From positions 1,663 to 65,662 of the forward strand of contig JAUCBJ010006747.1 in assembly GCA_032718475.1 (NCBI GenBank): a stretch of 64,000 nucleotides of DNA. The letters are read 5' to 3'. The notes beneath the pieces were generated by a model. That model made no database searches. It was not told where the DNA came from and was given only the letters and a program-made list of their open reading frames with translations. Below are positions 1,852 to 42,125 of this stretch, piece after piece. Positions within the stretch are counted from its first letter, which is position 1. Every line of letters starts with the position of its first letter. The translations under genes and the position numbers were made by a program. The DNA is from Nemertoderma westbladi. Taxonomy: Eukaryota; Animalia; Xenacoelomorpha.

Positions 1852-1912
1852 TAGCATAACTTATCATCCCAGTAGTTTATTTAAACATATTTAAGTACCG
1901 GAAGTTATTCTC

Positions 1913-18063: not shown

Positions 18064-18473
18064 AGTAGTAGGAGAAGCAGTGTCCCCCTCATAGTCCTCC
18101 CTAGCTTGGGCTATGGGCATTCCATTCGGAGGGCTATTAAAAATGCCAATTTCCGGTGCTAAATTGTGGTGGGCGCCATATGTCACCATCGGCAGTTGCC
18201 ATCAACCAATCGTAGCGTAGCCTAACCTCGCGATGCCCGCCTTACTCGACTACTGACTAACTACTAACCCTAATGTTATTCACCTTTTCGCCACGTTACC
18301 ACCACTGTATACTGTATTTATGGTGACGACAACGACGACGTGGCCGTCTACACGCATCACGCATATATTATATTATATCGATTGCCAACTCAACGATTTA
18401 CCCACTGCCAAACCAACCAACCAGTATGATACATGAAATTCCGCCACGTTCCAGCTACGCGTATACGAGCATT
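18064..18473 (+). repeat. Maverick left terminal inverted repeat
   Basis: Reverse complement of ~41676-42125. The outer ~235 bp are nearly identical; the inner part has indels. Confidence 0.95.
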
Positions 18474-18719: not shown

Positions 18720-19163
18720 ATGTCTTCTAATTCCGATATGGTTATGCCAATAGTAAGGCATTCATTTTTTGCAGAAGATGGTGAAGCCTATATTGTTATT
18801 GATTATACAATTTACCGTCGGGGAGATGATAAATATAAAATTGAGTTTTCTGAAAAAGCCAGGAAAGTTTTAAGCTCAATTGATATTGATGCTTCTGATA
18901 ATAGTATTCATCTCTTAGATTACAACCTGAAAGTTGAGCATGAGGGAAAATTAATCAATATCTTACTATTATCCATGATAGAGGGGTTAATTGTCATTAC
19001 ACAATACAACGAAGCTGGTGAAAAGTTTGAAATATGGCTAAATCGGCATAGCCCCTACGAAATTATGTCTTTCTTTATTGTAATGATTTCAAAAGAATCC
19101 TTTGTCGAAACTGAAGAATCAACAGATAATGTTGAATATGTTGATAATATCATTGATTCTTGA
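18720..19163 (+). CDS. Maverick hypothetical protein (acidic, 147 aa)
   Basis: Intact ATG-initiated ORF just inside the left TIR. No recognised motif. Confidence 0.6.
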   Translation: MSSNSDMVMPIVRHSFFAEDGEAYIVIDYTIYRRGDDKYKIEFSEKARKVLSSIDIDASDNSIHLLDYNLKVEHEGKLINILLLSMIEGLIVITQYNEAGEKFEIWLNRHSPYEIMSFFIVMISKESFVETEESTDNVEYVDNIIDS

Positions 19164-19356
19164 CTTTTCCCGCTATATTATAAATATTTTATGATTATTT
19201 ATAAAATTTTGATGTTTTTAATTATGAAAAAAAAAAAAAAAACATCAAATTTTAAATAATCAAAAATTGTAGTAGTAATTGTATATACAGTATAACAGAT
19301 TTGTTTGTTGTTGTGTATTGAGGTAATTATTTTCAATTTACTTTAAAATTTGGAAA

Positions 19357-19806
19357 ATGGATATTTTAAATGAAAAATGTCCAGTTTGCTATTCTAAGTT
19401 ATTGCAACATCGAGATTATTATAAATGTGAAAATAAACATGCAACTTGCGTACAATGTATTGTACAATATTCCGAAATGAATAATTATTGTTCTAAAATT
19501 TGTCCTATTTGTCGCGCACCCATATCTAAGTTTAATATAAAGTTGGCAAGATACCAACCCTATTATTGGAAAGAGCTTCGAAATATAACTTATATTTCTG
19601 CGGAAAGTAATGATCCGGGAGATTTATTTACAATATTGGAGAATATTTTTTATAGAAATGTAGTACGACGGTGTTGCTACTATATTCCTTATTTTTTTAG
19701 CAGCGAACATAAAAAAATCATTAGCGCGAAATTCTCGGGAAGTGATTTCCAAACCGCCGATGTTACCTATCATTATTTCGCGTATAAAGATGCTCACCAT
19801 GCTTGA
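19357..19806 (+). CDS. RING-finger (C3HC4-like) protein, putative E3 ubiquitin ligase
   Basis: CPVC...CENKHATCVQC...CPICR cross-brace pattern. Confidence 0.8.
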   Translation: MDILNEKCPVCYSKLLQHRDYYKCENKHATCVQCIVQYSEMNNYCSKICPICRAPISKFNIKLARYQPYYWKELRNITYISAESNDPGDLFTILENIFYRNVVRRCCYYIPYFFSSEHKKIISAKFSGSDFQTADVTYHYFAYKDAHHA

Positions 19807-20028
19807 AATTACATTGAAAATGAGTCTATACTATAATTGGAAATAGCACCTTTTGTTGCAGCGAGCGTCACATACTGTAGTTGTGTCATATGTTAATTAA
19901 ATATACAGTACTCTAATATTGTAATTGCATCAATTATTGTTATATACATAGTAATGGTGATGGTTTATTGATATTGATATTTATATTATATATATTATAT
20001 TGTTGATATATCTTAATAATAATAATAA

Positions 20029-20711
20029 ATGGCTGACTTTAATTCAGGTCCATATAATTTAAACTTTCAAATGGGAACGAGTATGATAATTTCTGGCCCA
20101 TCTGGTTCTGGAAAGTCAACATTTGTTAGCAATTTAATTAAACACAAGAATGGTTGTTTCAACGAAGCCCCATTGCGAGTATTGTATTGTTACGGGAGCA
20201 ATCCCCCAACTATTCCTGGTATTACTCACCTTTACAAAGGTTTGCCAGAAAATATAGATAGTTTAGTGAATAGTCGAGATTTATTAATTATAGTTATTAA
20301 TATGATTTATTAACAGAAACTGAGTCCAGTACAGCTTTAACTGTATTGTTTACTAAGGTAGCTCATCATTCCAATATATTTATTTGTTTTATAACGCAAA
20401 ACATGTTTTACGGTGGGAAGCATAACCGCACAAGATCAATTAATAGCCATACTTTAGTATTAATGAAAAATCCGCGAGACAGTTTATCGGTTTTAAATTT
20501 CGCGAAGCAGATGTTACCAGGGCAGACCAAATTTTTAGTAGATTCCTATCAAGATGCGACTATTGAACCATTTTCGCATTTCTTAATTGATTTACGACAG
20601 GAAACACCCTAACATTTAAGATTTAGATCGGATATATTTCGTAATCATAATTGTTACATTAAAAATTACATTGACTATAAACGTAGCGATAATAATAATA
20701 ATAATAAATAA
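20029..20711 (+). pseudogene. Maverick A32/FtsK-like DNA-packaging ATPase (frameshift and stop)
   Basis: Walker A ISGPSGSGKST. After a frameshift: FITQNMF...RSINSHTLVLMKNPRD...FLIDL. Premature stop at 20612. Confidence 0.9.
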
Positions 20712-20748
20712 TTAATATTTTATAACAATTTTCAATAATGTTGCAACA

Positions 20749-21132
20749 ATGAATAGACTTGTGCAGAAATATCGTAACGAACTGGAATTTCTACGCAGCG
20801 CTACCCCTCAACAAAGAACTTATTTTATTAACCATACCGCGAGTAACGAATTAATACAGCTCATTGTAAATACTGCATTAAATGTTCTAAAAGGTAACGT
20901 ACAATTGACCCCTCATTCATTTAGAAATATTCGCCACTATAAAAAGGTATTGAAATCACTCAACCGTAAAACAAAAAATATATCAAGTTACAGAAAAAAG
21001 TTAAGCAATCAATCTGGAGGCATACTACCGTTTCTAATACCCTTACTCGGCATTGGTGCGAAACTCGCCGCGAGTGCCGGTGCTGCTGCCGCTGGAGCGG
21101 CTATTGCGAAAAAAATTAACCGTGGACGGTAA
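20749..21132 (+). CDS. Maverick basic core/virion protein with protease-cleavage-like site
   Basis: Basic 127-aa ORF ending QSGG|ILPFLIPLLGIG plus an Ala-rich tail. ALNVLKGNVQL motif typical of the Maverick ORF that follows the ATPase. Confidence 0.75.
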   Translation: MNRLVQKYRNELEFLRSATPQQRTYFINHTASNELIQLIVNTALNVLKGNVQLTPHSFRNIRHYKKVLKSLNRKTKNISSYRKKLSNQSGGILPFLIPLLGIGAKLAASAGAAAAGAAIAKKINRGR

Positions 21133-21134
21133 TA

Positions 21135-21305
21135 ATGGTTAAAACAGGAGTAACATTTAGAAAATTATATTTAGTATCGAGTAAACCGTTAGCTACTGAT
21201 TTAAAACCTCAAGATATACCTAGAGTAAATACTACAAAAAGAAAACCCTTTAAAACATCAACTTCAAAGAAAATAATTAAAAAATTTCAGTTGTTTTTAC
21301 GGTGA
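21135..21305 (+). CDS. Small basic Maverick ORF (56 aa, below the ORF-track cutoff)
   Basis: MVKTGVTFRKLYLVSSKP...FLR*, starting 2 bp after the previous stop. Confidence 0.4.
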   Translation: MVKTGVTFRKLYLVSSKPLATDLKPQDIPRVNTTKRKPFKTSTSKKIIKKFQLFLR

Positions 21306-21356
21306 TGCCCTTTATAAGAGATTTGAATATACATATTACTTGCGGTTGTCGAAAAG

Positions 21357-22445
21357 ATGCCACGCAAGATGAAACCGATTTTAAGCCGAAGCTTAGACAA
21401 AAAACTGTTAAGAATTTATTTAGATCCTTCATTCCCTGCGGGTTTGGCAAGTATCGCAAAATTAGCAAAAGCCGCAAACATCAAACCAGCTCAAGCCCAG
21501 AAATGGTTGAGCGGGCAAAAGACATACTCCCTTCACGCACCATGTAGACATCATTATCCAACATCTAAAATATTTACGGGAGGCTTAAAAGATATATATA
21601 TGATAGATCTGGTGGATATGCAGCAATATAAATCGCAAAATAATAATTATAACTATATATTAACATGTATTGATGCCTTTAGCCGGCTTGCTTTTGCCTA
21701 TGGTATGAAAACAAAAAAGGGTATTGAAATTATTAGTATATTGCAAAAAATATTCCAGAAAGGAAAACCAAACAGAATCGCAACTGATCAAGGGTCTGAG
21801 TTTCTAAATAAATCTGTAAGGAAATATTTAGATACTATTGGTATACAGTATTATGTAATGTATTCTGTGAATAAGGCGGCTATTGTCGAGAGATTCAATA
21901 GAACATTAAAAACAAAGATGTTCAAAATTTTCACGCAACGAGGAAATAATGTTTGGATAAAAATTTTACCGAAGCTCATTTATGCTTATAATAGGTCAGA
22001 TCATAGGACAATAAAAATGACACCCATTGAAGTTAATAAATTTAATGAAACTGAATTAATGAATAGATTATATGGGAAATATAGACAGATTAATCACAAG
22101 AAAATAAAATTTAAAGTTGGAGATACAGTACGATTATCTATCGCTCGTACTGCTTTTGCTAAAGGCTATTGAGAACAATGGACACGTTAATTATTTATTA
22201 TTCATCGGGTCAGATTGGATAGAGTACCAGCGGTAATGTTCGATATTAAGGACAGCGCTGGAGCTATAATAAATGGCTCATTTTATTCATACGAACTCCA
22301 AAAGGTCCACCCGAATAGTAATATTTATCTCCCGATTGATAAAAATATTGGCAAACTTAAAGAACGTGTACGCAATGGGAAAAAATAATATTTAGTCCGA
22401 TTCATCGGATCCAAGAAACAGTCGTGGGTACAGCATATTCAATAA
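21357..22445 (+). pseudogene. Maverick retroviral-like (rve/DDE) integrase with chromodomain-like tail
   Basis: IDLVDM, LTCIDAFSR, TDQGSEF, KAAIVERFNRTLK. Read-through past stops at 22172 onward gives EQWT, GSFYSYELQKV and YLVRFIG...SWV. Confidence 0.93.
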
Positions 22446-22710
22446 GTTTAGGTTTATACTGTATATTAATTCATTTTGGTCACATATGTCCGTAATTAAT
22501 TAATCAATCAATATTAACTCGAATGATATTACTATACTATAGTTCATTTGCTTTAAATAAAGCCAGTAAAATATTGATCCCTCGCATATACTGTAGAAGC
22601 GAAGCGGGAATGAACGTGGTCACCGATGTCTATAATTTAACATTATACCGTACTGTACTGTACTGTATGTACAAAGGAGTCAAGTAGAGAGAGCTTAAAT
22701 AATAATAATA

Positions 22711-23592
22711 ATGGCTGTAGATACATATATCACTCTACTTTCAGATAGCTCATTAAACACTTACCCCAATAATAACCCTAGCGAGTTTCCTGTTGATTTA
22801 GCCGAAGAATTATATATTGGTCCAAACGCTAAAATTGGACTCGCGGAGATACAATACCAAGCAACATACAGTAATATTACTCTGCAAACTCAAATCTCGC
22901 TGTCAATCGGTGTAGATGCAAAAGATGCCAAATTATATAGTTTATTTCCTGGTATGCATAGCTCTATTCAAGTCATTATTGATGATATAAATAAACTGTT
23001 TAATTCTGAAGCAAAATATAGAGATTTCGAATTCATTTTTAATACAAATAATTCTAGAATTAAATTTAAATTTCCTAAAAAGTTGAAAAAAATACAATTA
23101 AGTCTACGTGGTGATTTAATTCAAATTCTAGGCTTAAAACCGTTATTGGATCAGAATCATCCGAGTATTCCGAATTGGGATATATACAGTACCACTACAG
23201 TGGATGAATTAAGCAATATAGAACAGCCGATATTAATTTTAAATTATAGTGGACCAAAAATTTCGGAAATTGGGATTTTAGATTTTCCAGCTCCCACAAA
23301 TATTACTCGTAATAAAGATACTATCTTCATATATACAGATATTATTAAGAGCTCATTTGTTGGTGACGCTTTAGCACCGCTCTTAAGAACCTGTCCTTTA
23401 ACACAATTAAATCAAAAATATATTAATCACGAATACGAGAGCATTTGCTATTACCCGTTGTTGAATAAAAAACTAAAAACAATCTTAATTACTTTACGTG
23501 ACGGTCAAGGTGAATTAATTAATTTCAACTGTGGTCGCACTGTTATAACACTTAAGTTAATACGCGGTGGTGGTGGTGGTGGTGATGGATGA
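22711..23592 (+). CDS. Maverick minor capsid (penton-like) protein 1
   Basis: YITLLSDSSLNTYPNNNPSEF...IGLAEIQY at the N-terminus. IFIYTDII..SFVGD..APLLR...ILITLRDGQGELINF at the C-terminus. Confidence 0.85.
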   Translation: MAVDTYITLLSDSSLNTYPNNNPSEFPVDLAEELYIGPNAKIGLAEIQYQATYSNITLQTQISLSIGVDAKDAKLYSLFPGMHSSIQVIIDDINKLFNSEAKYRDFEFIFNTNNSRIKFKFPKKLKKIQLSLRGDLIQILGLKPLLDQNHPSIPNWDIYSTTTVDELSNIEQPILILNYSGPKISEIGILDFPAPTNITRNKDTIFIYTDIIKSSFVGDALAPLLRTCPLTQLNQKYINHEYESICYYPLLNKKLKTILITLRDGQGELINFNCGRTVITLKLIRGGGGGGDG

Positions 23593-25716: not shown

Positions 25717-26283
25717 ATGGATTCCGATTTATTTCAAAGATACAGTAAACCTCAATATGGTGGTGCAGACTCTAATCTTGCTGTTGTTAAAGGTGGTAGA
25801 AGTACAAGAGGCTCGACGCAAGTTCCTGTTTTTCGAGGTGGTTCATATATTGACCCTTACGGACAACAAATTGGTGCATTTGGTCCAAACTTAAAACAAC
25901 GTCGTTTTCAACGTTATCGTAGAGGTATGTTGCGAACAAATCAACACGGGGAAGGTATATTTACAGACGCTTTATCTACATTGAAAAAATTTGGTAAGCC
26001 ATTAGCAAAAAAAGTGTTACAGAAAGCTTTACCATTTACCACAAAATTTATGAGACAACACGTAATACCAAAAGGTAAGCGGGTCTTACATCAGCAGGCT
26101 AATACGGTTATTAATAAAGCATTAAATAAAATGAAACCATCCACAAGATCGGTTGTAGAAAAAGTTTATAGAGACTTAAAGCGACGTACTAGACCAATGT
26201 CTATGAACATACATCATCGACGTAGTAAAAAGAGAAAAATAAAAGGCAAACTGAAACACTGCGAAAAAAAGTATTTTTTAATA
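25717..26283 (+). pseudogene. Maverick basic core protein, currently read in frame into the major capsid
   Basis: Arg/Lys-rich, with QYGG, VPVFRGG and QHGEGIF motifs. An alternative frame ends AKKSIF-stop-stop immediately before the capsid ATG. Confidence 0.7.
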
Positions 26284-27544
26284 ATGTCAATTATTAAGGA
26301 ATTAGATTTATTTTCTACACAGCCAATACAGACTGAATTTAAAGCAAAGCATTATGAAACAATTTACCCGGTATCCAATCTCAGAAGTGAGTCTAGGGAA
26401 GTCACGTTCCTTGTACCAAGATCCAATGAATTCTATACGAAACTGCAAGATGCGTTATTAATTACAAAATGTACTGTACGGTGGGATAGACGACTTGAAA
26501 ACTCCCATATTTATATGTTGAATTACCCCGCTGGAACTATGTGGAGTGATATTAAAATAGACCTTAATGAGAAGCAGGTTGAAAATGGCAATAACCATTA
26601 TTTCTACAAGTCGTACTTATCCAATTTACTATTTACAACATACGAATCTAAAAATGGGCTACTGGGGGCGGGTGGATTTCATCAGCCTTTATCCGAACAC
26701 GGAAATGAAATTGATCCTGGTGCGCATCCTATTGGCGATGCCTTTAGTAAACAAATGCAATTTGTAAGTGGATTGACAATTGATTTTGATACTGAAACTA
26801 AAATAATACAACCCGGGTATGATTTAAGAATGCATTTTAGAAAAGTATCAAATTTGTTTATTTTTAAAATCACTCCAAACACAAACGCTGTGACAAATCT
26901 TCGGTTAGAATTAGATGAAGTAAAGATCCTAATCTCTAGAATGGAGGTTAATCCCGTAATAGAAAGCAGTCACCTAAAAGGTTTAGAGAGTTACGATATT
27001 GAATATCAATTCCAAAAAAAGGAGGTTACAACATTTACTATTCCCGCACAAACCACAAATTACACCCAAACAAACATATTTGATGGTAAAAAACCCAAAT
27101 TAGTTATTATCGGTTTTATAACAAATAATGCATTATTCGGGAGAATTAATTAGTAACCCCTTGAAATTTGAACATTTTAACCTTAGACGCGCGGAACTGA
27201 TTGTAGACGGTCTTCCAGTAGGTGGTGTAATATACGAGCCTAATTTTACAGATGGAACATACATTTTTGAGTATACTCAATTAATGAAAAACATTAATAC
27301 ATATATTAACGGTTATGGAGGTAATAATATAGACCATGAAACCTACTTAGGTAATTGCCCACTCATATCCTGGGACCTAACCGCCGACGGCTATGTTAGA
27401 GATCCGTAACCATCGATATTTACTAACGGCCAATTAAAATTAAGATTTGCCGAACCGTTGGTTGAGACCATAAATGTAATCGTTTTTATTATTTATGATC
27501 AATCATTAAGTTTAAATAGCAGGAAAGAAATACATATTGATTAA
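26284..27544 (+). pseudogene. Maverick double jelly-roll major capsid protein (frameshift near 27140, stop at 27409)
   Basis: KELDLFSTQPIQT...YETIYPVS, NNHYFYKSYLSNLL, KPKLVIIGF, NPLKFEHFNL, WDLTADG, LKLRFAEPLVETINVIV. Confidence 0.9.
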
Positions 27545-27546
27545 GT

Positions 27547-27999
27547 ATGTTATCTACAGAGGACCTTGATATGTTTCCAGTGGGTGGTCACTATTTGGGA
27601 GCGTTTCCATCTAACAAATTACCTAAATTAGATAATAATAAGCGGAGAGATTATGGGTTAATAGTAAACACCGATAAACAGCATCTACCCGGGGTTCATT
27701 GGATAGCTATATATATACGAGATAATGAGGCTGAATTATTTAATTCGTTCGGACCAAAATATCCAAACAGATGTATTGAAAAATGGCTTGAGAAAAATTC
27801 AGCAAGATGGCGTACTACCCAGAAACAATTTCAAGACCCCAGGAGGACCACATGTGGATTATACTGTCTTTATTACTTGGTAAATCGAATTCACACAAAC
27901 TATCCAATGAGAGCGTTTACAAATAATGTCGAAATAAATGAAATAATATTATATAAATGGCTTGTTAATTATTATAAAATAAACCAACAAGCGTTGTAA
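27547..27999 (+). CDS. Adenain-like cysteine (maturation) protease
   Basis: IVNTD...PGVHWIAIY...FNSFG...FQDPRRTTCGLYCLYY. His and Cys retained; the usual FDS motif reads FNS. Confidence 0.9.
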   Translation: MLSTEDLDMFPVGGHYLGAFPSNKLPKLDNNKRRDYGLIVNTDKQHLPGVHWIAIYIRDNEAELFNSFGPKYPNRCIEKWLEKNSARWRTTQKQFQDPRRTTCGLYCLYYLVNRIHTNYPMRAFTNNVEINEIILYKWLVNYYKINQQAL

Positions 28000-28030: not shown

Positions 28031-28636
28031 ATGGATAATATTATTTTTGTTGATTTTCAATATTACAAGATAGACAATAAGGAATATCCAGTAGTATTTA
28101 AAGAATTTGCTATATTCGATTCTAATTACACCAAAACTAATGTAAAGACGTTTTTAATTAAAGGTCCACCTAATATTAAGTTATCAGCATTAGATAAAGC
28201 TCATGTAAACAATTTACGAGACATGACTTCGCATTTACCTTGGGATTACTGTGACATTTCGCAAGATGACTTTAAAAAGTACATGAAGAGACATTTAAAA
28301 TATAAAAGAAATATACATGTATTTGGGTTGATGAAGCGGGCAATATTAGTTTCCCAACTTGATGTTCTCGCACCAAATTCGATGGAGAAATTGTGGATAT
28401 ATCAATATCAGCAATATTACAATTATTTAACCCCCTGTCGCTTCCACGATCAATTTATTACACTAGAAAATAAATGTGCTTTCCACTTAAACACAAGGGA
28501 TAACTGTCTGCGGTACTGCTCTGCAAAACGTGTTGGCGGGTTTGAATTGAAACGATTTTTCGTGAGAAAGCGTTTAACTGACACTGATGATAAACAGAAA
28601 GAAATAACTGCGGTGGAAGATGTACTCGTACATTAG
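28031..28636 (+). CDS. DEDD-like nuclease-fold protein with Cys/His tail
   Basis: IIFVDFQYY...VFKEFAIF, HLPWDY, IHVFGLMK, CAFH...CSAKRV. Confidence 0.6.
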   Translation: MDNIIFVDFQYYKIDNKEYPVVFKEFAIFDSNYTKTNVKTFLIKGPPNIKLSALDKAHVNNLRDMTSHLPWDYCDISQDDFKKYMKRHLKYKRNIHVFGLMKRAILVSQLDVLAPNSMEKLWIYQYQQYYNYLTPCRFHDQFITLENKCAFHLNTRDNCLRYCSAKRVGGFELKRFFVRKRLTDTDDKQKEITAVEDVLVH

Positions 28637-29124: not shown

Positions 29125-29337
29125 TTGGTCTAATCTATATTACTGCGGGCTACTACTGTTGCATAGGCAAGCCTATACAGCTATAGTTAACTTTATGCGG
29201 CCCCCTTTTTCGAATGTTGACCCAATATGGTTGGTCTAATCTACATTACTGTGGGCTACTACTGTTGCATAGGCAAGCCTATACAGCTATAGTTAACTTT
29301 ATGTGGCCCCCTTTTTCGAATGTTGACCCAATATGGT
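29125..29337. repeat. ~106-bp tandem duplication in the Maverick central spacer
   Basis: TTGGTCTAATCTA...CGAATGTTGACCCAATATGG present twice. Confidence 0.9.
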
Positions 29338-29666
29338 TTACGGTTAACCTTTAGAACTCACACTAGGCGCACCTTCATTCGGTTAGGCATATAGGCCTAA
29401 TCACTACTCCTCGACTGAAAGCCTCCTAGCACATTGATACAATAGGTGTGGCTAGCAATATATAAAATTCACCGCGCCCAAGTTCATTCATTCACTTCAT
29501 GTTGTAGGCCTATAGGCCTATAAAACATAATTAGTTTATTTATGTATTCGCTTTTTTTTTAATTAGATATAAAATATAAAATACACAATACAATACAAAA
29601 ACCTACTGATACCGGTAACACACGTGACTAATTATATAGGCCTATGAGTCTACTTGCTGTACGAGT

Positions 29667-30020
29667 CTACTGATGTATTCTCGGATCAGATGGAAGTAGT
29701 AGAGTTGGTGTTGGAACTGGAGCTGCTGCTATATCTTCATGTTCATCCCAGTTCTCTCCCCTACTATAATTGTCTAGACTTATCTGATGCGCCGCTCCAG
29801 GTTGTACTCTAACGTTTAAATTGAAGTTTTTATTGGTCGTCAATGTGGTTTGGTGACCTTGGCTGCCGCTGGTTTTATTTTTAATCATTATTGTTATTTC
29901 ACCGTTGTTGTTTTTTAAATGTAATTCAGTTACATTTAATGATGTGAAATAAAGGTCGTCTCCATCAACATCAAATTTTAATAAACAGTCGTCGCTATTT
30001 TCAATGAAAGAAAATGCCAT
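29667..30020 (-). CDS. Maverick hypothetical protein (117 aa)
   Basis: Intact ATG-initiated ORF on the replication-module strand. No recognised motif. Confidence 0.45.
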   Translation of the reverse strand: MAFSFIENSDDCLLKFDVDGDDLYFTSLNVTELHLKNNNGEITIMIKNKTSGSQGHQTTLTTNKNFNLNVRVQPGAAHQISLDNYSRGENWDEHEDIAAAPVPTPTLLLPSDPRIHQ

Positions 30021-30760
30021 CTTGGATGTCGGTGTTGGATGTTGGATGTCGGAACGGATGTTGGTTGATTGATAGAGAAGGATTGTCGGAACTGAAGTTT
30101 GTTGAGGTTAGTTTTTTTTTTTTTTTCAAATATGAAGATAAGTTAGGCCTAGTCTATACCGGTATTTATTTTTTTATTTTACGGTAGGGAAACAAAATTA
30201 TAGTTCACTGTTAGAAAAATTGAGTTTATATATATTTTTGTATAGGGTCGCAGATGTTTAGATTACAAAATTCTCATAGTTAACAAAATGCACAACATAA
30301 ACCTTTCCCATGCGGATTAGTTAGCGATATATGCTCTGTTCGTTGTTCTATTCTGAATGTAGGGAGATGCATAGCTGATGTTTTAATAATATGTACCGGT
30401 ATACAGACTAGTAACAGATAGGAGGGCATCGTCTTTGACTATGAATACCAGCGCATAGCCCTAATCTTTTCTCAACGAGCTTAGCGTTGCCTGCCGCACA
30501 CATACACACTCATAAGTAACAGATGCGCTATTGTAGCTCACTCGTGAGCAGCGATGCTTAGTTAGCTAGCTAGCTAGCTACGGCCGCTGAGTAAACTATG
30601 CCTACTCGAGTGTTACAAGCAATCGCTCTACTGAAGTTAGTTAGTTAGTTGTTGATTTTAAAAAAATATTCATAAATTTTTTCCAACCAAATTTAATATA
30701 TACTTTACAGTAAAAATCTCCACCACCAAACAGCAACAACAACAACAACAACAATAAATT

Positions 30761-31320
30761 TCACTCGCACGAATTATATTTTACATCAAAAACCCTCGCA
30801 CCAAACAATAATAAATTATTAACCAGTTTGTTGAATATAGGATAATATATATGAAATTTAAACGGGGAACACATTAATGTACATTTACCAGTGTAGAAGC
30901 AGCAAACAACAACAATATTATTTATTCTGACTTTACAGTTATTGAATATTTCGGGCTCGTATTAAATTTCTAGTTTAACATTATCAAATATAACATAAAA
31001 CCCGATATTGTTTATAAGTAACCTATAAATTACGGTATCGATACTAAAAATATAAGTACACAAATTGATTGATTTAAAAATCAAATTAATGTTTGTTTTT
31101 TCGAATATATGCTTTTTCACTTTATTAAAATTATATTTTCTACCGAGAATTGTTATTCGTCCATTTGTAAACATTAATATGGTTGCACCAAATACCTTAT
31201 ATATAAACTGATTAGGTTTGAGTACAATTTTACCATTCAATTGATTTTTAATTCTTTTAAATTAAGTCCATAAATGATCTGCTTACAACTTATATTTTTA
31301 TTTACTATTTGATAATTCAT
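30761..31320 (-). pseudogene. TATA-binding protein (TBP)-like gene, one frameshift and one stop
   Basis: Manual reconstruction: MNYQIVNKNISC..LNLKEL/..KPNQFIYKVFGATILMFTNGRITILG...INLCTYIF...LEI*YEPEIFNNCKVRINNIVVVCCFYTGKCTLMC. Both TBP half-repeat signatures are present. Confidence 0.7.
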
Positions 31321-34300
31321 CATCAACACCATCGTCTTTTGGTTCTTCATAAATTGGTATATTTGATATTTTTATAGGTTTTTTGAGGTTTGTTTTATAG
31401 TGCCCCCAAGGAAGTGATTGATTTTTATTAACCCAATAAAGTTTATCATCAAAGCTACTGAGTGCAAATTTATTTTGCTTTAAGGTATAAATACGATGTA
31501 ATTTAGATTGAAATCTGTGTATGTTTTTTTTTATTTCTTCATTTGAGTTATATGCTTTTAAATATTCTTCATGTTCGATTCTTCATGTGTAATATTCGTT
31601 TCCACAATAGCTCTTGTAATACCTTTTGCTCTACGAATATTTTTGTTATTCCATTCCAAAATTGAATATAATTTTGGTCTTAAAAATACTGCTTGTTTAA
31701 TTTCAAGTGAAGCTAGTTCATCTTTACAGTAATAAAGTCTCGATTTATTTTTATCGCTGTAGAGAGGGTGATCCTTAGGGTAATTGGATGTATCTAAAAT
31801 ATTATTTTTAATTAATGCTTTTAAAAAATTATTCTGCGATGTATTATAGTAACATCCTATTAAAGAGTCTGTATCTGATGCAGCAATTTCAATACGGCAG
31901 TTTAATTCTTTCTCAATAGGTAGCAATTTATTATAAAACAGCTCATACATATCCAATTTAGCCAAGTCCAACACAGTGCTACCAATAAATATAGGCTTAT
32001 CGAGAGTTACAGAGTCTTTCACTAATAAATGTCCCGATAATGTATTATTGTATATTATAAATTGTTCATGATTAATACGATTTACCAATTGGTCGCATTT
32101 ATCATTGCTATTTGCAATACGAAAGTTACATCGATCTCTTATCTTTTCTATTGATTTGCCAAATAACGAATTATTAAGCAATTTCGCGACAGCTGTTTCA
32201 ATGTAACTTTTTGCTAGTCGCCTTTGATTAATATTAAAATCGATGTAATTTTTAAATACAAATTCTTGTTGAAAAGAATATAATTTATGTAGTTTAGTAA
32301 CAATTAATCCATGTTTTATATAAAATTTTAACAGTTTCAAATGTAAATGATAAAACTCTTTATCAAATTGCGTCAGCAAGAGTTTTGGTATAGGCATCCT
32401 ATATTTACGGGAGGTACCTCTTTGTATCGATAAGTTATTAAATTGTTCCCTCATATAAGGCGAAAGCATTGATTCATTTATACTTAAATGCTCTGGAGCT
32501 AACGGTAATTGTAATGTTTGATCGTGAATAGCTTTGGGATAATTTAAATCACATATTAAAAAATATCCAGTAGATCCATCAATTTCTAAATCTACCAAGT
32601 ACTCGATTAGTTTTTCTGGAATTGCATTCTCTAAGTGTTTAATACTTACTTCTTTGAATTGTGAGGTGGGTAGTTTTTTACTTAAATTCCCAGAATATAA
32701 AGAGTTGAAATCAATATTAAAAATATGGCATTCTTCCTTAGTAGAATCATATGTACTTGTTCCTGGTATATTTGATTCTATATAATGCTTTCGACAAAAT
32801 GAAACACCACCCCTAATTGATTTTTCAAAATCTCTATATGTCTGATAATCCTTTATTAATTCTATTTTACATTTATTATATTTTAGTGCGCAATCATAGG
32901 TAAATGACGCGATACTACAGTAAAAAACCGCTTCTAAATCGTAATTTTGTTTACAAACCTTCCTAAAATTCTCAAATATATCAGCAAGCAAACAAACATT
33001 GAGTTTTAAATAGGCTAAAAGATAATCTTTGAGATTCACACAGTCGAATTGTACCCATGATAATTCCGCAAACCTATAATCTTCAATTGTGCATGTTTTT
33101 TGACTTAAGTTACTAAAAAAATTATTTATAGACGGCAAACCAGTATCATTAAATTTATTTATATCTGTCAAGTACTCGTATGGAAATACTCCTTTCCGTT
33201 TAATTGTTGAGTTATTCAAGTTTGGATAAAAATATTTCATTTCTTGTAGAGTAATAGGTAAAATTGAGCTTATATCATGACTCGCCACATCCTTTGTTGA
33301 ACACTCAACTAAATTACTTAAAGAAAAGCTTAAAAATTGATATGTGTCTAAGAAACGTAACTCAATTTTCTTAGAAGTGTTTTTAATTGGGATAAATGTA
33401 CTCAGTGAAATATATCGTTCTGTATTTCTCGGTATAACCTTTATATCCCAATCTGTGTATTTCTTATCTCTAAATCCGGTTTGTAATATACAATGTATAT
33501 CATAATTACTGGAATTATGCCCGCAAAGTACATACAGGTATCGTTTCAATGATAAACTTTGGTCACAACTATTACAGGCTGCCGCAATATATTTACCTGT
33601 AATATGTGAATGATGTCTGTTTTTCCCTACATTATTATTTAAAGTAACATTACAATAGAAACAAAATTTTGCTTGTTCAAAATTTACAAAATCAATATTA
33701 GTAAATGACATAGTTTTATGAGTGTATATTTCTGACCAACAACATAATTCAGTTAAATCAGTATATAATGAATCTAAGAAATCTTGAATACAATTATTAT
33801 TATTTGACTTTACGAATGTTTTCAAATGACATTTTGGAGCATCAATTAATTCAGTATTAGGAACAATTAAATAACTCACAGCACACGGTATATGCTCCTG
33901 TATAATTTGATTATTAACTGAAGGTTGTAAGATACATTCTATATCAAAGTAGGTGACAAACAATGGGGTTAAGGTTCTATCTAAATTTGTAAAACTAATG
34001 TGTGTTCTTTTTTTATTAGGTAGTTTCTCTCGTTGACTTCTTCCTTGGTAGCATGCGAGACGGTGTCGATGAAGAACTTCCGCTCGAAAAAAGTGAGCCA
34101 AACACCTTTCACAATATTTCCTATTCCCGATATGAAGAGCTCTCGTATTCAGCAATCGATTCAAGTTAGTTATGCTAACATAATGATTCAGTTTAGGTAC
34201 ATTGTTATTTTTTACTACAAGTAATATATTTAATAACTGTTTATCAGGTGTAATTTTACTAAACGGAGGTTGTCTTAATATAGATACAGGGGTGCGTTTG

Positions 34301-34450
34301 TTGTCGTTATTCCAACATAGTAAATTAATTATATATTTTGAATTTTGTTTTTCAAAAAGTTTAATCGCTAACTGCCACTCTGTTGGATAATCATTTTTCC
34401 CGTTGTCAAAAATGAAATGACTCATATAATTTTTGTACGACGAAGTAAGC

Positions 34451-36662
34451 TGATAAACAACCGCGACACCTATACTAACAGCAGAACTGTTGAACAGACC
34501 AATACCCGTTAATATCCTTCTGCCAACCTAATAAGTTCTCGTCTAACCAATAAGACACAAAGACTGCTCTACTGTTAAGTAAAGGGGATCAGGAGCGTGC
34601 TATTACTAAATTGTAAGGGTTGCTAAATACAAAACCGCTACTTACCGTTGGATGGCGCTAATCTGCCGTCCGCTAATATATTTTACTAAATTTACACAAC
34701 TCCTGCAAAATCGCTTGTTCCTTTCTCTACCGATCGCTCGATAGAGAGCTAACTGTTCGAATCTATAAGCCACGCGGGAATAACCAAATCAATAAATCCG
34801 AGTCGGCTCCCTAAGCTTACTTAAGACGAGTACGAGGGGCTTTGCACTCAGAGTATATTCTTACGCCTAATTTTACTACTGAAATACGCTAATGCCTACG
34901 TCTTTTCTAATCGCGAATACTGGGGGTTCCCTAACGGAATGTGTGAATGCGAGAATATTTAAATAAATCAAAATTGGTACAGTACAATGTCTTTCGTAGG
35001 TGTTACCGCTCTGGGTCTAAACTTGCCTGCAGCTGGCTTTAGGCCAGCAACTTACTAGTGTCTTGCGTACTAACTATTGCGATCTAGTTTATTGCCCGCT
35101 AATTCAAATAACCGCTCAGCGTGAATAGTTTACGGTACTCTAATTATTACCTTAGCTACTCTCCGCTATGCTGCGTACTAATTCTTAATTTTACTAATTA
35201 ATTACAGTCACAAATATGTAACAGCGCACTAATTACTAAGAGTTCCAGAATGCGTAATTCTAATTTATTACACAACAGGTTTCACTAGTAATAGCCTAAA
35301 ATGCCGTATTACTTTGACCTAATCAGTAATTATTTGTTGTAACTAAGAAATAGAAATCAATCAAAAGGGAAAGGGTGCCTACCTAAGCATTCGTAATCAC
35401 AGGCACACTTCAGTAACACACCAATCAGTGTCAGCAATCACAGATCACAATAGCACGACTTGCAATTATACAATCTGCAATTATATAATTCGCAACTTAC
35501 TTACGTACTTACCCACTTACTTACTGTAAGGTATGCAGGCCCCTCCCGGGTACATCTAGGCTTCCTAACTAACCCAATTCCTGCCCCCTAATACTAAATA
35601 GAGACAAAACCTTGGATCATCAGCCCCCTAATTACTGTACCGGCGAGCGGTCTCCAACCCACAGTCCAAACTGCCCGACCGCAACGTTGACCCCCGCCAG
35701 CGTTGCCCGCTTTTGAATCCTCCGCTCTCCCTTAGTCGCCCAACCCCCCGATGTGCCCACCGCCCACTGGCGCCTTAGCCCTCCATTATGCTAATAGCTA
35801 CCGTAGCGGCGCATGCAAATCACAAAGTCTGACAGTCTCAGAAATCCCTTAGGATTATTGCGCAGAAAGGAATCACGTAGAACCATTAATCAAAAGGTAG
35901 AAATCATAGTTCAGTTGTAATTAGCAGTAATCGACAGGAATTAATTGAGAAACACAAGCAAGAATAATCGCACTCGAATTATTTTAAGAAACTAATCAAA
36001 ATTAGCAAATTGCAGAAAATCAGTCAAAAAATACATAGGGACAGCTCAGCAAGTACAACAGCAATAAGTGGGGTGTCACGTGGGGTTCTACCGGCACGCC
36101 GTCAATTTATAGGTGATCCGAGTGGGATGATGCAATAGGGTGACTCAATCGCTCTCCTATTGGCTCTCCAGTCCGTGCTAGCACTAGACCAACCTGGAAG
36201 CAGCTAGTCCAATAAGGAGGCCGGATTGTAGCCCTATGCCCTCAAATTATTACCATATATGGTAATGGTTCACGTCTCTGGCTGCTGAATGGCCAGGACA
36301 GCGTCCCTATATGCTAGCCCTACTAAAGCTAATATCAGCAAGCACGGAATCCAGGGTCCGAATAAACTTACCCTGGAACTATCTACATATAACCTAATAC
36401 AAAATTACGTAGGTAGGGCTACATACTATACAAAATGAATGGATTCAACTATATGGGTGTTCCGATTTCCCTATCTAAATATCATTGCGTCATTATGCCT
36501 TATCTAAAATATTATGCTGCACAACGGACTAATATTACGTACAGTATAACGGACTAATATTGCATACTGCATAACGGACTAATATTGCATACTGCATAAC
36601 GGACTAATATTGCATACTGCATGATGACTAATAATATGGATACAGCGCCATATACCGTAACA
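34451..36662. mobile_element. 2.2-kb solo-LTR-like insertion in pPolB
   Basis: TG...CA termini with a 5-bp TSD TAAGC (34446-34450 and 36663-36667). Non-coding, with a 25-bp tandem repeat near 36525-36622. Confidence 0.85.
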
Positions 36663-37185
36663 TAAGCTGTTTGTTGTTTTTCACTTTGCTACCAAATTTT
36701 GCGGTTATAATAGCCCATTTGAAACAGTCATTATCAGCCGTTTGTATATTTATTGTACAATTTTTACCTGATAGAACCTTAGGTAATTCCATATATCCAT
36801 GCCCCTTATATAGTAACGACCTACACTTAGATTCAGCTAATTTAATTTCAACCCTTAATAAAGATTTAATACGCCACCCTGAACCACGTGTGTTAAAGAT
36901 GGCTATTTTTTGTAATATATTTTCCACCACATACTCAAACCATGTGTCAAAACTTTGTGATGAATCTACAGTATTAATAGCACCACCGGAAGAATTAAAA
37001 TAAAAAGTTTCCAATTGCTCGCCTTCTGAAAAATGTGATCTGTACATTAATACATTTAGACCTAACCACAGTCTAAGAACATTCATTTCTTTCAATCTAT
37101 CTAATATTAACTGAAGAATATTACCTCGAATTTGCGTTAATGCTGTTTCTACATCGGGATAATCTCTAGAAGTTGGGAGGTCGTG

Positions 37186-39337
37186 CACTAGCGTAGCGAG
37201 GGTAGGGTCCCAGGGTCCCGGGACCCTACCGTGGAGATTCCAACTTACATCGTCAAGTTCCGTTAAATTAAAAAAATTATAATGACAAGTGCAATAAACC
37301 GAATATTAGAAAATATTCGAAGTTGAAGTTGCTTTGGAAAGGAGCCCGACCCCAGACCAGATACAATCCACATTATCCCAGGCAGGTTGCCAAAGAAAAT
37401 AAGTAGTAGAAAGGAGACCATATACCCCATCAAAGTGTTGTAGCCAGGCCTCCAGCCACACTACCAATAATTCCCTCAGGCACCCCCCCTCCCCCCCCCC
37501 CCCCCCCCCGCCCCCATGATAAGGCATCATAATATCATACAATGTTCTTAGAAAGCCAGCTTATTACTTAGGCCTATATTATATAATCTCTCAACCAGTT
37601 TAATAGTCTGTAATGTAAAGCAATGAAATGGAGCCCAATTGACCACTGCAGGGGGGCGCCCACTGGCTCCTGCCTTGGTTTCTGTGCTTTGATTAGACGA
37701 CGTCGCTGTGCCTTGCCTGTCAAGCAGGGTTCAATATATACCAATGAAAGATAGCATAAATAAGATAGGCACTCTGACTCTGATGTAATATAATGAATTA
37801 TGTAATTTTTTCTGGGCACACTGACCAACGTGATTGGATATTGCGTAGCTTGTCTTGCCGAGTCACAACTAAATAACCTGTGGGTGGCTATGTATTTTAA
37901 TTCAATATTATTATTAATACCATGAAAATTACTTTGAAATGTAATTAATTAGAACATTAATTTTTTTTAACAAAAAAACGTTTTTTTTTTTACTTTCAAT
38001 AAATCAAAAAAGTGTATTTAATAATGTACCGGTACCATAATTAGTTCAATTTCAAAATGTGGCAGTTTATAAAATAATATACCATGGTGTGGGGTGGGGG
38101 ATTGTTTCACGAAGCGACATTTAACTAAATGGAAATCGCCGATTTGTAAATAAGGTATTTAAAAAACGGAAGCACATTTAAATTTTACGTCCCTTAATTT
38201 AAATGACATGAATTGAAATTTGCCTACTGTCATTTTGCAATACTTTTATGTTATCAATACATGTTGTTATGATTCCATGGTAGTAGGGCCTATAGTACTA
38301 GTTTTTAAGAATAAGTTAACTGTTCTTAATAGAAATATTATTAAATTTACTGAAAAGCCATGACAGCATGACGACCAGACCAGTTGCTATGCCGTATAAC
38401 TATTATTATGTTAATGAGTTTAAATGACACATCATTACGTAAATGATTTAAAGCTAAATGACAGGGGGATAAATGACACGCGAATAGCAGTTTCTTGAAA
38501 CATAAAAACTTTCTGTTATAATTAAAGTATTATTTTTAATCTTTCCAATTAAGCCAAATTAAATGACCGTATGTAAAACAGTCCCCTCAGTTTAATTATA
38601 ATATTAATTTAATTTATTAATTCAATTTCATTTGTAATTTCAGTAACTTACTTTATAACTATGATTTTATCATATTAATTCTTAATAGCGGATTTTCTAA
38701 ATTACTCATCTTTACTGGGGGGGGGGGGGGGGGGGGGGGGGCTTTACTGGGGGAATGAACATGTACTGGTGCGCATTACTCAGAATGAGTAGTATACCGA
38801 CTACTGTACTACAGGCTACAGGTTGGGTGCAACCTTCGCCCGAGTACAACCTTCGCCCGCGCCAATTTCGCCCGTCCACACTTCACCCCGGGGAAAACCT
38901 TCGCCCGCAAGGCAATCTTCCACCGCGAACAACCTTCGCCCAATAAGATTTGTGTTAGTAACCATTTTAGTTACCAATTAAGGGAAAGGAGCAGGTTACA
39001 GAGACGGCTTCTTCTAACCAAAACAATAAACGATGTTGTTACCAATTTAAGGTAAGGAGCAGGTTACAGAAACGGCTTTTTCTAACCAAAACAATAATTG
39101 TTTAGTTGGCGATGGTTGCTCGCGGAGAAGATTGTCTGCGGGCGAAGTTTGCTGCGTACCCTACTAAACATTACACATCACGTGTGGCGGGCATTTTGTT
39201 AAAATTCCAAACAATCACACCTGGACTACGCTGGGGGGGGGGGGGGGGCTCTTCCCCCACACCCACAACTACTATAAATATGAATTACAATTTGGGGTCT
39301 GGGACCCTACCGTAGGAAATTCCTGGCTACGCGGCTG
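37186..39337. mobile_element. hAT-like non-autonomous DNA transposon in pPolB, with nested MITEs
   Basis: 8-bp TSD AGGTCGTG (37178-37185 and 39338-39345). Imperfect TIR CACTAGCGTAGC / GCTACGCGGCTG and subterminal GGTAGGGTCCCAG / CTGGGACCCTACC. Confidence 0.88.
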
Positions 39338-39943
39338 AGGTCGTGGACATAAATTTCAAGACGATTATCGTGAGCTTCTTGTTCCCGCGTAAAAATTGTT
39401 GCGCATGTACCAAGAGCCACCCTTAATTTTTTTCTAGATAATATATTTTTATGTTGCGGAAATTTACGCTTTCTTGTGTAGTAACATTTCAAGTGACAAT
39501 CGTGTCGTAAATAATTCTCATATGTATACTCTTTATTACAGGTAGAACAAGTCAATTGATAGGTACGGAACTCCATTTCTTTACAACCAGTAGTTGATTC
39601 ATGTCGTTTACAAATTTCGCTGCATGAAGTCACGACGTGACACTTAAAACAAGAATAACCTTCAAAATGTGACCGTAGGTGGCGTAAATAATTATGTCTA
39701 GTTACATTCATATGACAGAATGAACAACATATTGTTATTTTATCCATGCTGAAGTTTGTTTAGATAAATAATAATAATAATAATAATAAAATATCTCCAA
39801 AGATTAAAATAAAATGAAATGAAATGATATTGACTATATCTAAACATTTATATGCTAGCGAGTGAAATAATTTTAAACCAATCACCAAACACCAATCACC
39901 TATGGGTATTGGAAACCTCAAAGAGTTTAACTTATGATCAGGT

Positions 39944-41008
39944 TTACATGTTAGGATAATAATCTGGTTTCCATGGAGAATTAGTAACTAGATCTACTGG
40001 AGCTGGGTTAACAGCAACTTTCTGTTTCTTTGCAGGTGATGCGTTGGTAAATTTACTCGATGATCTTGGCTTCCGAGGTAATATTTCAGGAAAGACCTGT
40101 TGCGGTTGAGAGCAACTCTCTTCAACATCCGGATTAGGTGATGGGATCTCTACGAATGCTTTAGGTTTATCCAAAAGGACAAAACCATCTACATTGGCTT
40201 CAATAAGAGAAACGCCATCCATAGCCTCTTTGAGAAAACTAATATGGGCTTTATCATTCAAGTAATGCAACTCAATAGAATTTCCACCTGCTCCTACTTC
40301 AGTAGAATTATCGGTGTTGGTGATAATAATTTTTTTATTATTGGTTTTAATCATTTTGAGACGGTCTGATAATTGAATGATATTTTTATCAAAAAGATGC
40401 TTGTCTGGTTCATCAATTTGAGTGTCCCACTCTCGCAACAAAACGGTTAGTTCCTGATTTGACAAATTGAAACCCGTATAATAGTTAAAACCAACACTAT
40501 CAGCGTATCTGACGCTGATTTTCCATAAGCCAACATAGTTGGTTCCTTTAAAAGCTGTTACAAATCCAATAAACTCTGGATTTGATAATTCAATGTAGAA
40601 TTGATCGCTAATAATCTCTAGCGGTGGAGAGAGAAATTGCAATAATTTCCCTCTGTATTGAATTAGAACTTCAGTAAAAGCTTTGTTGAGGACTTTACAT
40701 TTGCCTTGTTTCTGAACGTAAACATCACCCGATGTGGGGTTGATAGAAATATTCAAATTTCCCCGCGCAAAACGAAGAGCGGCATATATCCTACCTGGTA
40801 TAATTGCTGGTCTGGATTGATGTTGGTTGTTGGTTGTTGTTTCTAGAATGTCTAGCAAATAGCGGGTATCTTGATGGGAAAAACAAATTGATTCGTTGTC
40901 CTCCTGAGATTCCACAATAAAATACTTGCTGTGAACGACGGTACAAGTATATTTATTGTAAGTAAATTTCCAGCTATTTGTTGCTCCGGTTTTTTGCGTT
41001 AAGGCCAT
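39944..41008 (-). CDS. Maverick protein with PC4-like ssDNA-binding motif
   Basis: Intact 354-aa ORF upstream of pPolB. FVTAFKGTNYVGLWK...TGFNLSNQELTVLL resembles the PC4 consensus (V..FKG..YV.IR...GISL..EQ...L). NLS-like PAKKQKV near the C-terminus. Confidence 0.6.
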   Translation of the reverse strand: MALTQKTGATNSWKFTYNKYTCTVVHSKYFIVESQEDNESICFSHQDTRYLLDILETTTNNQHQSRPAIIPGRIYAALRFARGNLNISINPTSGDVYVQKQGKCKVLNKAFTEVLIQYRGKLLQFLSPPLEIISDQFYIELSNPEFIGFVTAFKGTNYVGLWKISVRYADSVGFNYYTGFNLSNQELTVLLREWDTQIDEPDKHLFDKNIIQLSDRLKMIKTNNKKIIITNTDNSTEVGAGGNSIELHYLNDKAHISFLKEAMDGVSLIEANVDGFVLLDKPKAFVEIPSPNPDVEESCSQPQQVFPEILPRKPRSSSKFTNASPAKKQKVAVNPAPVDLVTNSPWKPDYYPNM

Positions 41009-41675: not shown

Positions 41676-42125
41676 AATGCTCGTATACGCGTAGTTGACG
41701 CGTGGCGGAATTTCATGTATCATACTGGCTGGTTGGTTGGTTTGTTGGTTTGGCGACAGCAGTCGTTGAGTTGGCAATCGATATAATATAATATATAATA
41801 TCGAGGGAGGGTATATGCATGATGCGTGTAGATGGCCACGTCGTCACCATATACAGTATACAGTGGTGGTAACGTGGCTGGTGGTGGTGGTAACGTGGCG
41901 AAAAGGTGAATAACATTAGGGTTAGTAGTTAGTCAGTAGTCGAGTAAGGCGGGCATCGCGAGGTTAGGCTACGCTACGATTGGTTGATGGCAACTGCCGA
42001 TGGTGACATATGGCGCGCACCGCAATTTAGCACCGGAATTTGGCATTTTTAATAGCCCTCCGAATGGAATGCCCATAGCCCAAGCTAGGGAGGACTATGA
42101 GGGGGACACTGCTTCTCCTACTACT
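41676..42125 (-). repeat. Maverick right terminal inverted repeat
   Basis: Reverse complement of the left TIR. Ends ACTACT, followed by the TSD GACGAG. Confidence 0.95.

What the first reader, a model, noticed from the sequence alone, without database searches (positions are those of the whole stretch)
30761..31320. Hidden TATA-binding-protein-like gene in a Maverick, overlapping the polymerase stop
Seen in sequence: the ORF track shows only a 92-aa fragment. Reading through one frameshift (~31245) and one in-frame TAA (30962-30964) gives a ~185-aa protein with both TBP half-repeat signatures: ATILMFTNGRITILG (compare TALIFSSGKMVCTG) and YEPEIF...VVCCFYTGKCTL (compare YEPELFPG...VLLIFVSGKVVLTG). 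Its ATG at 31320 lies inside the last codons of pPolB (stop 31298-31300), so it looks like an integral viral gene rather than a later insertion. Established: TBP is not part of the canonical Maverick core set (pPolB, integrase, ATPase, protease, capsids), although TBP homologues occur in some large DNA viruses. Inference: this lineage encoded its own divergent basal transcription factor to redirect host polymerase to viral promoters. I cannot tell whether this has been reported before.
Basis: partly seen in the sequence, partly recalled or inferred. Interest (0 to 1): 0.85.

Follow-up and report, generated by a model that had tools for sequence, protein, structure and literature searches.

The report
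Maverick virus-like element's own TATA-binding protein
A virus-like Maverick transposon carries a broken copy of a strongly altered TATA-binding-protein-like gene that its sister copies keep under selection, and the intact protein likely helps the host's RNA polymerase start at the element's own genes.

Summary
Observation confirmed. Window 30761-31320 (minus strand) is a TBP-like gene in a full-length 24-kb Maverick. It has one premature stop and one frameshift and overlaps the pPolB stop by 23 nt. Read with X at the stop, it passes Pfam's TBP cut-off (23.8 vs 22.9 bits). Sister copies in four public runs lack the stop. A divergent sister differs mostly at third codon positions (27 of 38, p 2e-6), so the gene is under purifying selection and this copy has decayed. 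An intact homologue (28% identical) sits in another Maverick, L088, which heads a family of 81 protein clusters. The gene is accessory: 1 of 112 pPolB loci has it, at a different position. Both DNA-contacting L5.1 phenylalanines and the acidic TFIIB-contact loop are kept, the N-lobe loop is shortened, and no TFIIB or RNA polymerase gene was found. Best reading (0.5, untested): an element-specific promoter factor working with host TFIIB and Pol II. L088 has a strand-biased CATAAAC box; no convincing box was found here. The fold match is weak. Not new in kind: a 2021 paper labels TBP in related viruses, and this scan has 37 findings matching these keywords on other DNA.

The parts
30761..31320 (-). 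TBP-like gene, about 184 codons, broken in this copy by a frameshift near 31245 and a premature stop at 30962-30964; alternative in-frame ATGs at 31323, 31332, 31350
31237..31320 (-). N-terminal piece upstream of the frameshift (first strand and helix of the N-lobe, with an N-x-N motif like the family's N6/N8); assignment by eye, not significant alone
30965..31244 (-). N-lobe core (shortened K-P-x-Q loop, L5.1 Phe at 31169-31171) and start of the C-lobe
30761..30961 (-). C-lobe: acidic TFIIB-contact loop at 30944-30961, L5.1 Phe at 30896-30898, last helix and short tail
31369..31399 (-). two canonical TATAAAA words, 79 and 56 nt upstream of ATG 31320, inside pPolB coding sequence; candidate promoter of the gene, weak in this AT-rich element
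31298..34527 (-). protein-primed DNA polymerase B, main part; frame broken near 31560 in this copy
36628..37305 (-). N-terminal part of pPolB, separated from the main part by about 2.1 kb with no frame of 80 codons or more
   Evidence: hits pPolB frames in 68 loci
18064..18305 (+). left terminal inverted repeat, starting AGTAGT, preceded by the 6-bp target-site copy GACGAG
41884..42125 (-). right terminal inverted repeat (99% complementary over 242 nt), followed by the 6-bp target-site copy
20029..20612 (+). packaging ATPase, split over two frames
21357..22172 (+). rve integrase; best match among fetched loci is the L088 integrase (E 3e-65)
25717..27409 (+). putative major capsid region, split over two frames; named by position and shared with 4 other pPolB loci, not recognised by Pfam
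27547..27999 (+). adenovirus-type cysteine protease (PF00770, E 5.9e-6)

Best explanation
This is a decayed copy of a TBP-like accessory gene of a Maverick family, and in intact copies the protein likely binds an AT-rich promoter word on the element's own DNA and likely recruits host TFIIB and RNA polymerase II to switch on element genes. Shown: TBP homology, selection among sister copies, an intact homologue in another Maverick, retention of both L5.1 phenylalanines and the acidic C-lobe loop, a shortened N-lobe loop, and no recognisable TFIIB or RNA polymerase gene. Inferred: the gene is first transcribed by host TBP from TATA words inside pPolB. The protein then binds element promoters with a changed preference, because one of the four intercalating phenylalanines (N-lobe loop; role recalled) is gone. 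Its acidic loop would dock host TFIIB and so bypass host TFIID. That it drives late (capsid, protease, ATPase) genes is inferred by analogy with herpesvirus ORF24.
For: Pfam TBP above cut-off. Family profile 37.4 bits vs at most 9.4 in 1000 shuffles and vs 18.9 bits for a profile of 17 archaeal and viral TBPs. hhalign probability 96%. The family profile hits solved TBPs at up to E 8e-25, and an intact member's Atlas neighbours are TBP clusters at 0.94-0.95 (recognition score 1909, which the tool calls weak). The stop is absent from all depth in 4 of 4 runs. Codon positions 9/2/27 for 38 of 44 differences in a divergent sister contig, p 2e-6. Both L5.1 Phe and the C-loop Phe are invariant in 59 of 59 rows. 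In the family the two acidic positions are E57/D1 and E58 of 58. Ravarani et al. 2020 (PMC7221094, passages) tie L5.1 to DNA contact and these glutamates to TFIIB, and report that large-virus TBPs keep C.L3.2 in only about 40% of cases and nearly always come with a viral TFIIB. No TFIIB or polymerase hit among 25 element frames scanned. In L088, CATAAAC occurs 12 times, all on the coding strand, vs 3.65 expected, 0 of 200 shuffles. It lies within 200 nt upstream of 7 of 13 starts and is the highest count among 41 loci of 10 kb or more.
Against: No binding or expression data. No convincing shared box in this element: CATAAAC occurs once, and an enrichment scan that recovered it in L088 found nothing comparable here. 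The two candidates are post hoc: YATAAAYG before 4 of 16 starts, and TATACWGTA at scattered distances, with its core also common in host flanks. Four of the 12 L088 words overlap stop codons, so they may be 3'-end signals. Six of 7 loci holding both ATPase and integrase have no such TBP, so these elements can do without it. The family was collected by shared words, which favours the acidic loop and inflates its conservation. Most sister depth has a conservative, still acidic change at the first acidic position. The model is middling (pLDDT 68, pTM 0.49), Foldseek gives no hit at E<=0.001 and TM about 0.4, and VIA Z is 6.5-6.9. Five element frames remain unassigned and could hide a diverged partner.
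Confidence: 0.5

Rival explanations
1. The protein is a decoy. It sits on host TATA boxes or soaks up host TFIIB and other TBP partners, damping host transcription or defence genes rather than activating element genes.
For: The acidic TFIIB loop is the best-kept surface. No clear element-specific box in this window. The gene is dispensable in related elements.
Against: The strand-biased CATAAAC word in the TBP-bearing L088 fits a dedicated site. An element that depends on host Pol II would pay for general repression (inference).
Confidence: 0.17
2. The TBP fold has been reused as a plain DNA-bending protein for replication, integration or packaging, for example at the terminal repeats.
For: It is coupled to pPolB here and adjacent to the packaging ATPase in L088. 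The N-lobe loop is remodelled. The branch is very long (4.65). A TATACWGTA word occurs in both terminal repeats.
Against: The TFIIB-type acidic loop is kept across rows only 19-29% identical to this protein, which such a role would not need. Gene adjacency means little in a 24-kb genome.
Confidence: 0.15
3. The factor recruits Pol III (through Brf1 or Brf2) rather than Pol II.
For: Ravarani et al. note that Brf1/2 keep the arginine that meets the same glutamate.
Against: No tRNA genes in the window, and the element's genes are protein-coding. I did not scan for other RNA genes.
Confidence: 0.08
4. It is a recently captured host TBP fragment or a chance match, decaying without function.
For: Two breaks in this copy. 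No relatives in two large protein searches. Weak structural scores. No host TBP was available for the tree.
Against: Third-position bias. Sisters lack the stop. It shares the shortened N-lobe loop with the L088 family and not with the archaeal or giant-virus TBPs. It scores higher on the family profile than on the outgroup profile. Other genes of this copy are broken too.
Confidence: 0.04

Closest known systems
TBP-labelled gene in MELD viruses with adintovirus-like PolB (Starrett et al. 2021, PMC8502044, Fig. 5 legend; preprint 10.1101/697771). Seen: passages, section 3.1, search of one supplement with no hit; figure not seen
   Same: A TBP-like gene in a Polinton-type element with pPolB
   Different: Only a map label, in a section on non-animal datasets; no analysis of residues, selection or promoters in the passages seen. 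Whether it is the same family could not be checked.
Cellular TBP, Pfam PF00352 (yeast 1ytb, human 1cdw, archaeal 1mp9)
   Same: Two lobes, both L5.1 Phe, C-loop Phe and acidic loop
   Different: Core only, 16% identical to the eukaryote-like giant-virus TBP of L113; N-lobe loop shortened to K-P-x-Q with loss of the usual Phe
TBP-like family around Maverick contig L088 (Ga0209655_10000188; 81 clusters)
   Same: Same shortened N-lobe loop, 28% identity over 127 aa with E 6e-9, same side of the tree, closest integrase among fetched loci
   Different: 19-29% identity to any member; lies behind pPolB rather than before the ATPase; lacks the CATAAAC word; N-lobe helix looks basic here and acidic in L088. 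Maverick context is verified for 1 of the 58 aligned rows only.
TBP of large DNA viruses (NCLDV, poxviruses; Ravarani et al. 2020, PMC7221094, passages)
   Same: Virus-borne two-lobed TBP keeping L5.1 Phe
   Different: Those mostly come with a viral TFIIB and often lose the acidic contacts; this element has no recognisable TFIIB or RNA polymerase and keeps the acidic loop
Beta/gammaherpesvirus TBP mimic ORF24 (PMC7498053, search listing; 10.1101/2025.08.25.672222, abstract and outline)
   Same: Works-like analogy: a viral TBP-like factor steering host Pol II to viral late promoters
   Different: ORF24 has extra domains, acts in a six-protein complex and binds Pol II directly, and a section heading says its model is incompatible with TFIIB binding. 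This protein is a bare core that likely uses TFIIB. Homology was not tested.

Membership tests
TBP-like proteins (Pfam PF00352) | Score above the curated cut-off | tested here: met
   23.8 vs 22.9 bits, E 4.1e-5
TBP-like proteins (Pfam PF00352) | Two lobes in one chain | tested here: met
   Two Pfam stretches; both lobes align
TBP-like proteins (Pfam PF00352) | Saddle fold | tested here: inconclusive
   Foldseek ranks 1-31 are all TBP chains but E>=0.009 and TM 0.34-0.44; VIA top 3 are TBP at Z 6.5-6.9, rmsd 5-6 over about 130 residues. The model lacks the first strand and was guided by the family alignment.
TBP-like proteins (Pfam PF00352) | Phe at L5.1 in both lobes | tested here: met
   F31 and F122 of P0001, invariant in 59 of 59 rows; role from PMC7221094
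Canonical cellular TBP | Full N-lobe loop with its intercalating Phe | tested here: not met
   Shortened K-P-x-Q loop; therefore filed as TBP-like, not as a canonical TBP
Canonical cellular TBP | Acidic C.L3.2 and C.L3.4 positions that contact TFIIB | tested here: met
   E102 and E104 of P0001; sisters carry a conservative acidic change at the first; role
Canonical cellular TBP | Binds TATA DNA and TFIIB | not testable with these tools
   No binding assay; complex prediction not run
Maverick/Polinton (host element) | Terminal inverted repeats starting AGTAGT and a 6-bp target-site duplication (criteria recalled) | tested here: met
Maverick/Polinton (host element) | pPolB, rve integrase, packaging ATPase, C5 protease | tested here: met
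   (several are broken in this copy)
Maverick/Polinton (host element) | Double and single jelly-roll capsid genes | tested here: inconclusive
   Candidate frames are shared with 2-6 other pPolB loci but have no capsid hit in Pfam or PHROGs; not folded
L088-type element-borne TBP family | Closer to this family than to other TBPs, with the shared shortened loop | tested here: met
   36.9 vs 18.9 bits; loop
L088-type element-borne TBP family | One clade in a tree that includes host TBPs | tested here: inconclusive
   Quick tree only: SH-aLRT 99 for window plus 58 family rows against 17 outgroup rows, but the window branch is 4.65, flagged as a long-branch join, and no cellular eukaryotic TBP was included
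NCLDV-type orthogonal TBP-TFIIB system | Viral TFIIB and RNA polymerase genes in the same genome | tested here: not met
   None among 25 element frames at Pfam sensitivity; five frames unassigned
Herpesvirus vTBP (ORF24 type) | Multi-domain protein in a six-member viral complex | not tested
   No herpesvirus sequence was compared; this protein is only about 184 aa

The most novel reading that the evidence does not exclude
Some Mavericks run a one-protein transcription switch: a bare, fast-evolving TBP that reads a lineage-specific promoter word, plugs straight into host TFIIB and so bypasses TFIID. It would be the smallest viral takeover of Pol II initiation, distinct from both the giant-virus TBP-TFIIB pairs and the herpesvirus six-protein complex. 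This lineage, too distant for two large sequence searches to find, would use a different word from L088.
Probability: 0.3. Interest if true: 0.8.

Novelty: new variant of a known kind. Interest (0 to 1): 0.55.

Why it matters
How Mavericks time their gene expression is, to my knowledge (recalled), largely unknown. A small element-borne TBP gives a directly testable handle on it, and a dedicated late-gene switch would argue that these elements still have a virus phase. Natural TBPs with altered DNA preference that still accept host TFIIB would also be useful as orthogonal promoter-factor pairs. This window adds a very divergent lineage, evidence of selection among copies, and a second gene position. 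It does not add a promoter word or any functional proof.

Tried and rejected
No own genome is held. P0001 found no relatives in the word-indexed search, the 1.84-billion HMMER search, metagenome contigs, PDB sequences (only hits at E>=0.5) or PHROGs. pPolB alone found nothing in viral contigs; its alignment did. The single-sequence fold was unusable (pLDDT 31.6). The viral fold library put several TBP-annotated giant-virus proteins among the hits but none at E<=0.001. PF00352 was found in 0 of 7 held viral records; 25 were not searchable. Family scans of viral and genome contigs gave one giant-virus TBP (L113) and one fragment (L114), no second Maverick. No RNA holder was listed; X5 is only guessed to be RNA, so expression is untested. 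Read depth in X1 and X3 is very high but is not a copy number. In X1 only about 35% of depth differs from this copy at the frameshift, so that break may be shared by a subfamily or reflect short contigs; unresolved. Promoter scans are; one of the 16 starts was an internal guess placed one base off. A strand-blind control on 6 TBP-less loci did not recover CATAAAC even in L088, so it is uninformative. My impression that frame 39944-41008 resembles PC4 (recalled) got no support. The careful tree did not finish. Complex prediction was not run: no host TFIIB was available and a stand-in would pass by likeness. Literature: 'Maverick+Polinton+TATA-binding protein' 1 unrelated review; 'Maverick+TBP+polintovirus' 0 (21); 'Polinton+TBP-like' 0 (24); 'Polinton+TATA-box binding' 3 giant-virus papers (25; passages of PMC11464507 concern the giant virus); 'adintovirus+TATA' 4 (71); five-term Maverick promoter search 0 (96); 'Polinton+TBP' 8 papers, 7 listed (107). 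The library lacks most subscription papers, figures are not held, and bioRxiv supplements are closed, so an unseen description is possible.

Full report
The element. The finding lies in a full-length Maverick at window 18064-42125. The terminal repeats are 242 nt and 99% complementary, start with AGTAGT, and are flanked by a 6-bp duplication. It carries an rve integrase, a C5 protease and a P-loop ATPase, and a pPolB with 587 relatives at E<=1e-10, the listed ones at 30-37% identity. This copy is decayed: the ATPase, the putative capsid and pPolB are split over frames. The host was not determined; an animal is likely from the element type (inference).

The observation. Both motifs, the stop at 30962-30964, the frameshift near 31245 and the 23-nt overlap with the pPolB stop are as described. 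With X at the stop, the 166-aa frame scores 23.8 bits against PF00352 (cut-off 22.9, E 4.1e-5, two stretches). With X at both breaks it is 184 aa. The N-terminal piece matches by eye only.

The gene is maintained in the family. Five runs from four studies hold the stretch; I laid four. At the stop codon all depth reads otherwise in 4 of 4 runs. At the frameshift all depth differs in X3, X4 and X5 and about 35% in X1. Single contigs in X3, X4 and X5 run across the pPolB-TBP junction. One X4 contig differs at 44 of 247 positions with no gap. Of the 38 differences listed, 9, 2 and 27 fall on codon positions 1, 2 and 3 (p 2e-6). This is one pair of sequences and not a dN/dS estimate, but it is the expected mark of purifying selection.

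Relatives. Direct searches found none. I fetched 112 loci through pPolB and searched their frames. One, L088, holds an intact 169-aa homologue directly before its ATPase. It scores Pfam TBP E 2e-15, hits solved TBPs at up to E 1e-11, and is 28% identical to P0001. L088 also has the closest integrase. It heads a family of 81 clusters; I aligned L088 with 57 of them. P0001 scores 37.4 bits on that profile against at most 9.4 for 1000 shuffles, and hhalign gives 96%. Only 1 of 112 loci (41 of them 10 kb or longer) and 1 of 7 with both ATPase and integrase carry the gene, so it is a lineage-restricted accessory gene. The context of the other family members could not be read (one search gave no usable names). 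A quick tree placed the window sequence with the family against 17 archaeal and viral TBPs (SH-aLRT 99), but on a branch of 4.65 and without host TBPs. The shared shortened N-lobe loop and the profile scores (36.9 vs 18.9 bits) are the better evidence.

Structure. With the family alignment the model reaches pLDDT 68 and pTM 0.49. TBP chains fill Foldseek ranks 1-31 but at E>=0.009 and TM about 0.4, and VIA's top three rows are TBP at Z 6.5-6.9. This is consistent with a TBP fold but weak and not independent of the alignment, and the model lacks the first strand.

Mechanism. Ravarani et al. 2020 (passages) identify Phe at L5.1 as the key DNA contact and two C-lobe glutamates as TFIIB contacts. 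They report that large-virus TBPs often lose those glutamates and bring their own TFIIB. Here both L5.1 Phe and the C-loop Phe are invariant in 59 rows. The acidic pair is present in this copy and is E57/D1 and E58 of 58 in the family, with the caveat that the search favours that motif. Sister contigs have a conservative acidic change at the first position. The N-lobe loop Phe is lost. No TFIIB or RNA polymerase was recognised among 25 frames. The simplest reading is a factor that binds a variant AT-rich word and uses host TFIIB and Pol II. Prompted by earlier scan notes, I looked for such a word. L088 has CATAAAC 12 times, all on the coding strand, although four overlap stop codons and could be 3'-end signals. 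This element has no equivalent: only post hoc candidates appeared. The promoter half of the model is therefore supported in the relative and unsupported here. I put 0.5 on this mechanism, 0.17 on a decoy, 0.15 on a non-transcriptional DNA-binding role, 0.08 on Pol III and 0.04 on a passenger or artefact.

Novelty. Viral TBP-like proteins are known. Starrett et al. 2021 label a TBP in MELD viruses with adintovirus-like PolB. Seven paper searches aimed at Polinton TBPs found no analysis of such a gene. This scan holds 37 findings matching these keywords in at least 5 genomes, and the 8 shown all describe Polinton TBPs; none matched this sequence or came from this genome. Verdict: a real gene, a new variant of a known kind, function untested, interest 0.55.

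Noticed in passing
L088:3529-18668: CATAAAC 12 times, all on the coding strand, vs 3.65 expected; near gene starts and, in 4 cases, over stop codons
   Followed up: partly
L088:11783-14128: L088 also carries a KilA-N protein and a parvovirus-type phospholipase A2-like domain, and its integrase has a chromodomain
   Followed up: no
window 34528-36627 and 37213-39313: pPolB is interrupted by about 2.1 kb without long frames, including a 25-nt tandem array at 36517-36633. A 20-nt direct repeat 2081 nt apart separates a Cys/His-rich frame (39307-39747) from the pPolB N-terminal part; possibly two nested insertions
   Followed up: no
window 39944-41008 (-), 18720-19163 (+), 29667-30020 (-), 28031-28636 (+): Unassigned element frames with no relatives in the 112 loci; 39944-41008 looked PC4-like by eye (recalled), unsupported by Pfam, Atlas, PDB and PHROGs
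   Followed up: partly
window 19357-19806 (+): RING-finger-like accessory gene, below Pfam cut-offs
   Followed up: no
window 18308-23183: TATACWGTA clusters in the left arm and terminal repeats (13 in the element, 0 and 3 in the flanks), at 73-256 nt from four starts; its core is also common in host flanks
   Followed up: partly
window 30500-31800: Summed contig depth reaches 10^4-10^5 in runs X1 and X3, with more than a thousand small contigs in X1, suggesting a very large family or free copies; no single-copy baseline was laid
   Followed up: no
window 1895-3364 (+): Intronless 490-codon frame with an F-box in the left flank
   Followed up: no
window 5782-6649, 29125-29338, 44161-46654, 54754-63551: Tandem arrays of 48, 106, 21 and 206 nt units
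   Followed up: no
L113:9956-10516: Giant-virus-like contig with an unusually eukaryote-like TBP next to its major capsid gene
   Followed up: partly
L114:9752-9937: A 62-codon frame matching the family's N-lobe (E 1.5e-6) in a contig of a bacterial metagenome-assembled genome; possibly a misbinned eukaryotic contig
   Followed up: no
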